Shown here: positions 53,531 to 63,415 of the stretch, piece after piece
Position numbering within the stretch: position 1 is the stretch's first letter
Layout: every line of letters starts with the position of its first letter
Assembly (NCBI GenBank): GCA_039621445.1
Contig: CP154954.1
Location: forward strand, 9,240,634 to 9,304,633
Length of the DNA: 64,000 nucleotides
Direction: 5' to 3'
Source of the DNA: Euglena gracilis
Taxonomy: Eukaryota
Notes under the pieces: generated by a model
The model's database searches: none
Seen by the model: the letters and a program-made list of their open reading frames with translations, nothing else
What the model was told of the DNA's origin: nothing
Made by a program: the position numbers and the translations under genes

Positions 53531-56500
53531 AACGTAGGTCTGTGCCTGAGGGGCCATGGCGTAGGCGTTTGGGGGCTCAAGCAGAGGTGTGGGGGCCAGA
53601 CCGCAAAGCAGAGTTTATGAGCAAGCGACGCAAATGGTCCAAAAAAATAATCGGTTCAGTTGCAATGGACAATCGAAATGCAGTCAAACCCTGACTTCAA
53701 ATTTCGGCGGCGAGACAACGAACGTGAGCAGGAGAGCAGGCAGACAACAAAAACAACAGACAATTGATTGAACACCGGATGAATGCAGAGGCACAGGCAC
53801 ACAAACAAGAGCTCCTCAGAGGGCTGGCAAAGGTGGGATGAAAACGGCGAGGATTGTAACGGTAGCAAAGCGGGTCCCATTCACCCCTGGGCACGGGGGC
53901 ATACCCCACAGACTGCTGCCCTGGCGGCGGCGGGTAGTAGCCGTACGGATACGGGTTGTAGGGTTGGTTGCAGGCACGGCGTGCGCGACTGTCGTGCGTG
54001 AACGTGTGGTGTGCATGGCGTGAAGCACGGGACCTGTCCAAACAGCCCAGTCGGAGCCCACCATCAAAGGTTACGACAGCGACCCAACAAGGTGAGAGGC
54101 TCTTCTGTCGCACGCAAGGGAGGTCCCAACACGCGCAGAGGAGGTCAGATTGCATGGAAGAAAACTCCTTTCAACATATGCCTCGAGTGGAAAGGTGTGT
54201 GGAGCCAGAGTTCAACAAGACAGACATTTTTGTCGTCAGATATACGTCGGAAAAAGGCATTGCAAAAGTCGGGTCATGAGGAAGGGGGTGTCTCAGAAGG
54301 TCTTTGCCTGGCCGGCCCGCATACTGTGGAGGAGGCGGTGCACCAGGCGGCGGGTACATCGGCTGGCAGCAGGCTTCTCCGTCGAGGCCCCAGTTCTGCA
54401 GGACCCCCTCTGTGGCAACAGTTGTCCCATTTCACACAGGAAAAATAATAGAATTATTTGGCATGTGCATTCAGTTTCCCATTCTTTTCCACAGCAATGT
54501 GCATTTTCAGATGTTTCTTTCAAATGACATTCAACAAAAAAATAATGGAAAAACGTGTTTCATTCTCAAATCGGGATGATGAATTTGGAAATGAGACAAA
54601 TTTCATATGGAAGAAGTCCAATCTTCTACGCCATCTTTGCCAACGCCAACCCTTGAAACTGCATCCAACGCAAATATATAAAATATATCACAAATAAAAT
54701 ACAATAAAGCAAAAAAATGAAAAAAGAAACATAAAAAATGCATGCCCAAAGATTCCTTGCAAACTATATGAAAAAAAAATGGGTGTCAAACAGTATAATA
54801 ACTTTGACGCTAATTGAAATTGCATGAGTTTTGTTTGATTTGTCGATATTGGCAAAAAATTTTGAGCTCTTTTCGGTGATTTTTCTTCTCTTTCTGGGAA
54901 ATGGTGTTGACTTCAAAAAAATTTCATTGAAAATTCTGGTGTAAAAAATTGTCAAAAAACCTCTGGGCATCACAGCATATCAGAGATAAAATATTCGCTG
55001 GGACTGCAAAAGTCTGGCTGGTACATCGTGGGGGATGGCGGACCCGGCGGGGCTGTGCTGGGGGCCGGCGGGGGGGCGTACCCGCGCTGGCCCCACCCCC
55101 AAAACAAAAACCCCCACCCAAAAACCCCCCGCCCCCCCCACACGGAGGGGAGGTGGGGATGGGAGAGAAGGGGACAGGAGAAGAAAGAGGGAAGAAGCCC
55201 CGCCAGGAAGGCGGACGGAAGGGGGAGAAAGCATGGGAGGGGGGGGGGCGACAGCCTGGGGCGGGTGGGGCGGGGCGGGAGCCTGGCGGGGGTGGTATGG
55301 CGGCAGAGGCCAGGTGGGGAGGACGGCGTGGGGTACCCCACCCGGGACACGCCTCAATATGGGTACCATATGCACAATTACATGCATACATGCATGAAAA
55401 TACGCATACTATGTCTAAACGTAAACATAGCTGTATATGCATGAATGTTTATATGTGTATATAGGTGTACATGTATATATGAATATGAATATGAATTATG
55501 TATGTATGTATATATATATATATTATATATATATATGGTATATATGGTAGCCCCCCCCCCCCCCCCGGGGGTCCCTGTAGTTCCTCCAGGGGGGGAGGGT
55601 CCGAAAGTTCCACCCTGGTCCCATGCTGCGAAGGTTTCGGGTTATTCGGGGGACAGAGTTAGGGTTGCAATTCAACTGCCAAAGGGCTCCCATCTTTCGT
55701 GGTTTAGGAAGAAGTTAGGCCCCATTTCGGACCAAGTTGAGCCGAATTGAGGCTGAATTTGGAGGCATCGTGTGCTCCCAAAAATCTTCCGAAATTGGAA
55801 CCTGACTTCTGGCCTAACTTTTCCCCTGAACGAGGGCTGCAACCCTAATCTGATTCCTATTAATAAGACACACCCTCCCCTAATCCAACAAAAGTTGCAG
55901 GATTTTGCCGTGTTTCGTGGGTGAAATGGAGCGAAAAATTCAAAAATGGACCTGGGTGGAAAGTTGGCGTGCTTCAGCGGACTCATCTGCCAGCTCAGCC
56001 ACTAAGGAACGCCACCACTGTCAAATCAGGTTTCAAAGACACCACCGAGCAATTTGGTGGCTCAAATCAGATCCTTGGTCAAGAATCTTAGTTGGGAATG
56101 AACTGTGCGGTTGAAGGAGCCATCAACTAGAAACCGTCCACAAGGCTTCAGTGTGGTGTGGACAACTGGGAACCTGGGAACCCGCTTGCTGCCTCCTGCT
56201 GCCCAAATTAGGTATCACCCCCCCCTCATCATCAAAATAGGCACTGCCCCATCACCAAATTAGGCACTGCCCCATCAAGAAATCAGGCACCCCGCCCTAT
56301 CATCAAATTAGGCACCGCCCCATCATCAAATTGGGCGACACTTGCCAACCTCAATCTCCGACCCGCAGAGGCAAATATCACTTCCCCCGGCGACCTTGGC
56401 ACCTGGCTGGGCGGCGTTGCTGGAGGTGGCTGGCCCGGGGGCCGCTGGGGGGTGGGCGGGGTGGGGGATCTGGGAGGCTGCGAGGCGGTCGAGGAAGACG

Positions 56501-62500: not shown

Positions 62501-63415
62501 GCAAATAGAAAAGATATAGGTAACAACAATCAGTCAGGGAGGCGGGAAAATGATAAATACAAGCCAATTGTGGCCAATTTTAAGTATAAGGCACACGGGT
62601 TACGAGCGAGCACATTCACAGAAACGCACACATCACGCACGCACGCGCACGTCCATACACAAACTGAATCCACAAAACACATGTCACGTGTCCAGGTATG
62701 AAAGCGTGCAACAAAAGGCCATCGCTGGCTGTACACGCGGGGAGGCTCGGTGGTGTGGATCAGGTTGGAAAGGCTCCAGAACAATGACCCGTACACCCGC
62801 ATCAGCTCTGGGACAGCGCCTTGCACTTTTCCAATGCCACCGCCCACAAAATGACAAAAAATTTCACTCTTTTTTGTTGATCAGTGACTGTGTGTGTGGA
62901 CTGAAATAGGATGCCACAGTCGGCTCAGAAGCAAGAGAAGTATGCAGCAGCTGACTTTGGCTGTCGTCATCCCACCGGAAAGAAAGGAGAATCCTTTCGC
63001 GCGACTTGGCCGGAGCGGAAACAAAATCAGGAAGCGTCGCACGGGGGCTGGCCCTGGGGTTCACACGCGTCTGCCTTGTTGAGAACCATCCGGAGCTTGC
63101 TCTCAGCGTCAGGGGTTGTTGGAGGTCGGATGAAGCAGAGAGGGGGGATTCTGTGCGGCGAGATTCCCATGCACCAAAATGGCGCAGACAGCAACTTTTT
63201 TTTAAAAAAATTGCCGGGAAGGGATTCGGTCCCATGTAGCCTGCCACCGCAAAACTGGAAAACGTCCAAACCCCGCTCCCCGTTCCAGCAGGGCGGAAGC
63301 ACAAATGGAGACCCCCACGAGTGCGCCAGGCAAACTGCCGAGGAAGGAGGCCGGACCCAACAACGTCTGCCAGTGGCCCCGGAACTGCTGGAACATGTTC
63401 CGCAGCTCCACCCCT
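53531..63415 (-). CDS. EHD/RME-1/sarcalumenin-like dynamin-superfamily ATPase, multi-exon, 5'-partial, with Pro/Tyr-rich tail
   Basis: Manually spliced exons: 63415-63373, 63104-63054, 62808-62731, 62133-62059, 61746-61713, 60998-60926, 59136-59079, 58453-58407, 58002-57874, 57335-57282, 56741-56673, 56509-56409, 55305-55256, 55083-55020, 54364-54314, 53965-53893, 53576-~53531. They join in one frame: [168 protein letters not shown]...MSKFPK... This matches remembered EHD motifs (VLNKAD G4, LMRVYGALMWSL, RVYIGSFW, KEMPxxFGK, GDFP, FSKF). The P-loop exons lie beyond 64000. Confidence 0.9.
56515..56669. mobile_element. hAT-like MITE that forms an intron of the EHD gene
   Basis: Perfect 12-bp TIR CAAGCACCTATG/CATAGGTGCTTG. 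Perfect 8-bp TSD TCCGGCGG at 56507-56514 and 56670-56677. Internal short repeats (CACCCGGTCA). Confidence 0.9.
61037..61383. mobile_element. hAT-like MITE nested in an EHD intron
   Basis: Imperfect TIR CATATCGTTGCTAA/TTAAGCAATGGTATG. Perfect TSD GGGCGAAC at 61029-61036 and 61384-61391. Confidence 0.85.

What the first reader, a model, noticed from the sequence alone, without database searches (positions are those of the whole stretch)
53531..63415. Sixteen consecutive non-GT-AG introns with stem pairing and compensatory changes in one gene
None of the 16 reconstructed EHD introns is GT-AG. Ten have CAG at +4..+6 and CTG at -8..-6 (for example 63372-63105, TGGCAGACGTTGTTGG...CCAACAACCCCTGACGCT). 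Four have compensated pairs in the same register: CCG/CGG (62058-61747), GGG/CCC (58406-58003), GAG/CTC (57873-57336) and CAA/TTG (56672-56510). Two (59078-58454 and 55255-55084) pair only imperfectly. This indicates that structure and register, rather than the CAG sequence, define the splice sites. The intron class is known in euglenids; the density and the covariation are notable.
Basis: partly seen in the sequence, partly recalled or inferred. Interest (0 to 1): 0.7.

Follow-up and report, generated by a model that had tools for sequence, protein, structure and literature searches.

The report
Euglena stem-bounded introns, RNA-confirmed
This Euglena gene really is cut up by the known euglenid introns that lack GT-AG ends and are marked by a short paired stem; that is ordinary for this organism, but five of the eleven RNA-confirmed introns break the recently published sequence code while keeping the stem.

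Summary
The stretch is the 3' part of a Euglena gracilis EHD/sarcalumenin-like gene (transcript protein P0002). RNA confirms 11 of the 16 claimed introns; the last five were not among the listed joints. None of the 11 can be read GT-AG; one can be read GC-AG. All 11 have three Watson-Crick pairs at +4..+6/-8..-6 and a purine starting the next exon (decoys 1.4%). One 'imperfect' intron was misplaced by 3 nt; the true one (59075-58451, CGC/GCG) pairs fully. The class, the register, 'complementarity rather than sequence' (Milanowski 2016) and the density (57-86% of introns) are published. 'Compensatory change' is not shown: these introns are not homologous, and one looks like an inverted-repeat insertion born paired. 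'Not the CAG sequence' is overstated: 18 of 20 such introns in two genes keep C at +4, and a paired CCC/GGG swap failed in a published reporter. The small new point: 5 of 11 fall outside the 2025 code and tend to have longer stems (post hoc, n=6). The scan noted the same pattern on other DNA of this genome (e1-7363070). Interest 0.25.

The parts
63373..63414 (-). first exon in the window ([14 protein letters not shown], residues 184-197 of P0002); upstream exons lie beyond the window
   Evidence: (loose end at 63414)
63105..63372 (-). intron 1, 268 nt, CAG/CTG, not slidable, fits 2025 code
   Evidence: RNA joint
62809..63053 (-). intron 2, 245 nt, CAG/CTG; a 1-nt slide (63052-62808) reads GC-AG, so it carries both codes
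   Evidence: RNA joint
62134..62730 (-). intron 3, 597 nt, CAG/CTG
   Evidence: RNA joint
61747..62058 (-). intron 4, 312 nt, CCG/CGG, outside the code (C at +5); strongest end stem (-28.0 kcal/mol)
   Evidence: RNA joint
60999..61712 (-). intron 5, 714 nt, CAG/CTG, not slidable
   Evidence: RNA joint
59137..60925 (-). intron 6, 1789 nt, CAG/CTG
   Evidence: RNA joint
   Evidence: RNA joint and transcript protein
58003..58406 (-). intron 8, 404 nt, GGG/CCC, outside the code (G at +4)
   Evidence: RNA joint
57336..57873 (-). intron 9, 538 nt, GAG/CTC, outside the code (G at +4)
   Evidence: RNA joint
56742..57281 (-). intron 10, 540 nt, CAG/CTG
   Evidence: RNA joint
56510..56672 (-). intron 11, 163 nt, CAA/TTG, outside the code; 12-bp perfect terminal inverted repeat, 8 of 8 identity in the 5+3 flanks and a 12-nt direct repeat (13 equivalent positions)
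   Evidence: RNA joint
55305..56425 (-). intron 12, predicted; best guess CAG/CTG with 6-nt spacer; other frame-keeping choices exist
   Evidence: not a listed joint; X1 contig length ends at 56426; candidates
54365..55019 (-). intron 14, predicted, CAG/CTG
   Evidence: motif and frame; depth arithmetic only
53966..54313 (-). intron 15, predicted, CAG/CTG
   Evidence: motif and frame; depth arithmetic only
53577..53892 (-). intron 16, predicted, CAG/CTG
   Evidence: motif and frame; the exon after it had no coverage in the RNA runs

Best explanation
These are ordinary euglenid nonconventional introns in an expressed E. gracilis EHD/sarcalumenin-like gene. Shown here: 11 are removed from the RNA; each has intron-specific complementary ends whose outermost three Watson-Crick pairs sit at +4..+6/-8..-6; each is followed by a purine. 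Inferred: the two ends of each intron pair in the pre-mRNA, and an unidentified machinery cuts 3 nt before and 5 (sometimes 6) nt after the outer end of that helix and joins the exons. The helix and its register are the requirement; C-D-G/C-H-G is a strong preference, not an absolute rule. A short stem needs the preferred triplet, whereas a long in-register stem can carry a non-preferred one (weakly supported). The paired ends are probably inherited from inverted-repeat insertions and then kept by selection.
For: 11 joints in two raw RNA runs and one contig run, none in the DNA-like run. The joined exons equal the transcript protein P0002 over residues 184-388 except one allelic residue. 11 of 11 in register against 1.4% of decoys; end-swapping 3.6e-5; summed duplex energy of true end pairs reached by 0 of 200,000 permutations. 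Independent gene in the window (P0125): 9 of 10 introns have a paired triplet at +4 in the 5- or 6-nt register with a purine next, and the one GT-AG intron has no stem. Published knock-ins show that the 3-nt and 5-6-nt spacers, the purine and the stem are required (PMC12501133). Off-code introns have more in-register pairs at +7..+17: 7.8 against 5.2 of 11, p=0.005, n=6 and 14; 4 of 5 off-code introns pair best with their own end, against 1 of 6 CAG introns.
Against: No experiment here touches the mechanism; pairing is computed, not probed. The stem-length trend was noticed first and tested afterwards, with four measures: p=0.005, 0.006, 0.048 and 0.15 for both genes together; the one off-code intron of the independent gene is top by pair count but not by energy (-14.4 against a mean of -16.6). 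Young insertions would also have long stems, so age confounds the trend. 9 of 11 junctions slide, and the register was chosen among slides (decoys were given the same freedom). Reads carry at least two alleles (63068 C/T) and 146 differences were not shown, so an allele with a code-fitting triplet is not fully excluded for each off-code intron. Read depth is low (1-13 per joint and run). Junctions of the second gene come from a protein match, not from reads.
Confidence: 0.75

Rival explanations
1. Structure alone sets the sites; the CAG/CTG bias is only the fingerprint of the mobile elements that made the introns.
For: 5 of 11 RNA-confirmed introns lack the code, two even lack C at +4, yet splice in the same register. 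Milanowski 2016 found CAG/CTG in only 33 of 55 introns and asked whether it is a fingerprint.
Against: [quoted passage not shown] 18 of 20 introns here keep C at +4 although their other stem positions are unrelated.
Confidence: 0.15
2. The 2025 sequence code (N3-CDG...CHG-N5/6-purine) is the rule, and the five exceptions are artefacts of allele differences or misplaced junctions.
For: 14 of 20 nonconventional introns in two genes fit it; the runs differ from the window by 1-3% and show two alleles.
Against: No equivalent slide of any of the five fits the code; each has a perfect triplet and a long stem in the window's own allele, which chance gives 1.4% of the time; the window allele is expressed (12 of 19 reads at 63068); the code covers only 61.2% of such introns in its own paper.
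Confidence: 0.07
3. The varied triplets and longer stems are birthmarks, not compensation: off-code introns are younger insertions from other inverted-repeat element families, born with complementary ends. This can be true together with the best explanation and replaces only its 'long stem rescues' step.
For: Intron 11 has a perfect 12-bp inverted repeat and 8 of 8 identity between the 5+3 flanks. Over 18 introns flank identity is 3.8 of 8 against 3.1 permuted, p=0.004; 3.6 against 3.0 without intron 11, p=0.02. The introns are not homologous.
Against: The other four off-code EHD introns show 2-4 of 8 flank identity, no more than the CAG introns. No second copy of any intron end was found in the window, and the genome could not be searched.
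Confidence: 0.4
4. The introns are spliced by the ordinary spliceosome at GT/GC-AG sites.
For: Intron 2 slides to GC-AG.
Against: 10 of 11 RNA joints cannot be read GT/GC-AG in any equivalent position.
Confidence: 0.03

Closest known systems
Euglenid nonconventional introns (Milanowski et al. 2014, PMC3935182; 2016, PMC4770533)
   Same: No GT/C-AG ends, end-to-end stem, invariant pairing at +4..+6/-8..-6, purine at the start of the next exon, short direct repeats; the 2016 paper concludes that complementarity is kept rather than sequence and lists CAA/TTG, AAG/CTT and CAT/ATG ends.
   Different: By my reading of its Tables S1-S3 none of the listed nonconventional introns has G at +4, C at +5 or C at +6; four RNA-confirmed introns here do. 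Its covariation comes from homologous introns across strains; the set here is non-homologous.
Noncanonical splicing code 5'-N3CDG-/-CH'GN5-6|R (Nomura et al. 2025, PMC12501133)
   Same: 3-nt and 5-nt spacers and the purine hold in 11 of 11; 6 of 11 EHD introns and 8 of 9 in the neighbouring gene fit the full code.
   Different: 5 of 11 lie outside it and would fall in the paper's 'unclassified' class (28.9% of all E. agilis introns). The exclusion of C at the middle position rests, by the legend of Fig. S11, on one CCC/GGG variant; intron 4 is a natural, spliced CCG/CGG.
Intermediate or 'both-motif' introns (PMC6221363 passages; PMC12501133)
   Same: Intron 2 reads GC-AG at one position and fits the nonconventional model one base upstream, like the tubA intron described there.
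   Different: Nothing.
EHD / sarcalumenin-like dynamin-superfamily proteins of euglenozoans
   Same: P0002 has EHD_N, Dynamin_N and DUF5600 above Pfam cut-offs; nearest named hits are EHD1 and sarcalumenin of diplonemids and kinetoplastids.
   Different: No EH domain was found in the 649-aa relative P0007; the tail is Pro/Gln/Tyr-rich.

Membership tests
Euglenid nonconventional introns | host is a euglenid nuclear gene | tested here: met
   exons match the E. gracilis transcript protein P0002 at 94-100%
Euglenid nonconventional introns | removed from mRNA without GT/GC-AG ends | tested here: met
   11 joints in RNA; 10 of 11 not readable as GT/GC-AG, 1 readable as GC-AG
Euglenid nonconventional introns | pairing at +4..+6 with -8..-6 and an end-to-end stem | tested here: met
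   11 of 11, computed; not probed experimentally
Euglenid nonconventional introns | purine at the start of the next exon; pyrimidine|purine...pyrimidine|purine tendency | tested here: met
   next base purine 11 of 11; last exon base pyrimidine 10 of 11; first intron base purine 9 of 11; last intron base pyrimidine 9 of 11
Euglenid nonconventional introns | excised as full-length circles, after conventional introns | tested here: inconclusive
   no back-joint at an intron end among the 15 listed joints, but depth is low and 204 joints were not shown; the feature is taken from review passages
Nomura 2025 code (N3CDG/CH'GN5-6|R) | C-D-G at +4..+6 and C-H-G before a 5-6 nt spacer | tested here: not met
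   met by 6 of 11; not met by introns 4, 7, 8, 9, 11 in any slide
Compensatory (covarying) base pairs | homologous positions changed on both sides of a pair | tested here: not met
   introns are not homologous to each other; no euglenid genomic orthologue was retrieved
Introner / MITE-derived intron (intron 11 only) | terminal inverted repeat plus target-site duplication | tested here: met
   12-bp perfect repeat, 8 of 8 flank identity
Introner / MITE-derived intron (intron 11 only) | further copies elsewhere in the genome, empty site in relatives | not testable with these tools
   no genome held; no copy in the window
EHD proteins | dynamin-like G domain with EHD_N and helical DUF5600 domain | tested here: met
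EHD proteins | C-terminal EH domain | tested here: inconclusive
   absent from relative P0007; P0002 is cut at residue 388 and the 3' end of this gene was not reached

The most novel reading that the evidence does not exclude
The published CDG/CHG code is one branch of a two-part rule: the invariant is a three-pair helix end placed 3 nt and 5-6 nt from the cuts, and triplet identity trades off against stem length, so that long stems splice with any triplet (GGG/CCC, GAG/CTC, CCG/CGG, CGC/GCG). This would account for much of the 29% of introns the code leaves unclassified and point to a helix-measuring endonuclease-ligase type of machinery able to accept any new inverted-repeat insertion.
Probability: 0.3. 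Interest if true: 0.5.

Novelty: new member of a known kind. Interest (0 to 1): 0.25.

Why it matters
The intron class, its register and its abundance are in print, so the finding as posed adds little. Its use is as a test set: five natural, RNA-confirmed introns that the 2025 code does not predict, two with G at +4 and one with the excluded C at +5. They can go straight into the existing E. gracilis knock-in assay to settle a question open since 2016, whether CAG/CTG is a recognition signal or a fingerprint of origin, and they would sharpen gene prediction in euglenid genomes.

Tried and rejected
No whole genome is held, so copy number of intron ends and genome-wide motif counts could not be tested. 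The run search listed no holder on record as RNA; raw RNA runs came by species label and were laid directly. Metagenome scan for genomic orthologues gave 3 loci, the best an unbroken 53%-identity match and two weak ones, none usable for homologous introns; viral and prokaryote collections were not tried as irrelevant. Homologues do not align well enough in the Pro-rich tail to place introns 12-16. A consensus fold of the eleven 5' ends gave no structure and no real alignment; it was uninformative. The free-duplex energy measure did not separate code from off-code introns over both genes (p=0.15), nor did cofold energy in the EHD gene (p=0.18). P0003 is a chance hit. 'Density is notable' was rejected: a run of 11 has probability 0.002-0.20 and of 16 0.0001-0.096 under the three published rates, in a genome of about 39,000 genes with about 10.5 introns each. 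Literature: five searches found no paper listing GGG/CCC, GAG/CTC, CCG/CGG or CGC/GCG ends by name, but subscription papers and the figshare intron tables were not searchable, so this is no proof of absence.

Full report
What the stretch is. The minus strand of 63414-56400 holds twelve short exons of an EHD/sarcalumenin-like gene. A 43-residue exon found one full match, the Euglena gracilis transcript protein P0002, and its residues 184-388 lie on ten exons at 94-100% identity. Pfam gives EHD_N, Dynamin_N and DUF5600; a 649-residue relative has no EH domain but a Pro-rich tail. No whole genome was available.

Checking the observation with RNA. I laid four runs on 53500-64000. Fifteen joints were listed and 204 were not shown. 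Eleven are exon-exon joints, each seen in both raw RNA runs (1-13 and 3-11 reads) and in one contig of X1, and none in X18, which behaves as DNA. Listing every equivalent slide: none reads GT-AG; one (63052-62808) reads GC-AG. The last five introns lie in the Pro-rich tail, where coverage was too low for a listed joint and homologues do not align. Depth arithmetic on X1 fits a frame-keeping chain in three of four bins and in the contig length; this is indirect.

More than chance. All 11 have a slide with three Watson-Crick pairs at +4..+6/-8..-6 and a purine next. Random decoy junctions given the same freedom to slide do so 1.4% of the time (200,000 decoys). Of 56 registers scanned, only this one reaches 11; the next best is 6. 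Swapping ends among the introns keeps all triplets paired in 1440 of 39,916,800 arrangements, and no permutation of 200,000 reached the summed duplex energy of the true pairs. The complementarity is therefore specific to each intron.

An independent set. A second gene in the window, an alpha/beta hydrolase matching transcript protein P0125, has ten introns placed by protein match: nine are nonconventional with a paired triplet at +4 (seven with a 5-nt, two with a 6-nt spacer) and one is GT-AG without a stem. Eight of the nine fit the 2025 code; one is CAC/GTG.

The register is the common feature. But the introns are not homologous: their ends share 26-30% identity and no blastn match in the window touches an EHD intron end, and no genomic orthologue was found. 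Different paired triplets in unrelated introns are not compensatory changes. Intron 11 looks born paired: a 12-bp perfect inverted repeat with 8 of 8 identity between the last five exon plus first three intron bases and their counterparts at the other end; I saw the 12-nt direct repeat, and took the element-plus-8-bp-duplication reading from earlier notes of this scan. Sequence also counts: 18 of 20 introns have C at +4 and 14 of 20 fit the code. The density is ordinary.

Mechanism. Shown: removal from RNA, intron-specific complementary ends, fixed register, purine. Taken from published experiments: spacer lengths, purine and stem are needed. Inferred: a non-spliceosomal machinery recognises the outer end of the helix and cuts at fixed distances from it, preferring C-D-G but accepting other triplets on a long stem. 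The last step rests on a trend I noticed and then tested. Off-code introns have 7.8 against 5.2 in-register pairs at +7..+17 (n=6 and 14, p=0.005); three other measures gave 0.006, 0.048 and 0.15, and the single off-code intron of the second gene leads by count but not by energy. Younger insertions would show the same trend.

Comparison with print. Nomura 2025 (PMC12501133; main text parts 1-4 of 6, Datasets S6-S8, SI passages and second half; figures not seen): 71.8% of E. agilis introns and 86.4% of non-slidable E. gracilis introns are nonconventional; the code covers 61.2% of them; single changes in CAG or CTG abolish splicing; of two paired swaps CTG/CAG worked and, by the S11 legend, CCC/GGG did not. 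The main text calls this a test of the second position, so the figure may differ from its legend. Milanowski 2016 (PMC4770533; passages and the whole supplement): pairing at +4..+6/-8..-6 is the most conserved element, complementarity is kept rather than sequence, CAG/CTG in 33 of 55, compensatory changes among homologous introns. Milanowski 2014 (PMC3935182; passages): MITE origin proposed. Gao 2024 (PMC11170887; parts 1-3 of 4): 16,151 of 28,337 introns nonconventional. PMC11282704 and PMC6221363: passages only. The genome-wide intron tables on figshare could not be seen and may already hold these off-code types.

Verdict. Real, largely confirmed, and of a known kind; the scan has noted the same pattern elsewhere in this genome. 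The residue of interest is five RNA-confirmed exceptions to the 2025 code, ready for an existing assay. Interest 0.25.

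Noticed in passing
window 25569-35393, minus strand: Alpha/beta hydrolase gene matching E. gracilis transcript protein P0125; 11 exons, 9 nonconventional introns (6 CAG/CTG, CTG/CAG, CGG/CCG, CAC/GTG) and one GT-AG intron at 30253-29944. Intron 32320-31131 has 7 of 8 flank identity.
   Followed up: yes
window 62046-61766, minus strand: A consensus GTGAGT donor and a CCAG acceptor lie inside intron 4, the donor buried in its stem. 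Removing that piece would leave a 31-nt hairpin that keeps the +4/-6 register. No RNA joint was listed for it; probably chance.
   Followed up: partly
window 53530 down to about 46700, minus strand: No stop at 53531; further Pro-rich exon-like pieces near 52095-52040, 49580-49430, 48660-48480 and 46800-46720 suggest the EHD gene and its intron run continue.
   Followed up: no
window 63415 and upstream: The intron before the first exon ends ...CCTGTTCCCAG; it can be read as CTG plus 6-nt spacer or, slid by one base, as an AG acceptor. Its donor is outside the window.
   Followed up: no
window bins 56659-57009, 58765-59115, 61222-61572: Very high-copy repeats inside introns 10, 7 and 5 (summed depth 138,000-203,000 in X18 against about 40 for single-copy DNA); one has an 89% copy at 15611-15708.
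   Followed up: no
window 57275: The X18 allele changes +7 of intron 10 so that it pairs with -9, a mismatch in the window's allele; a single case.
   Followed up: no
window 37720-37752, minus strand: An exact 11-residue copy of a hydrolase exon end (PVHIAEHFVRR) lies upstream of that gene, perhaps a partial duplication.
   Followed up: no
window 5253-5423 and 194-274, minus strand: Exon-like pieces, the first with an EF-hand match; other exon-like pieces at 37943-38059 and 43122-43205 had no Pfam match.
   Followed up: partly
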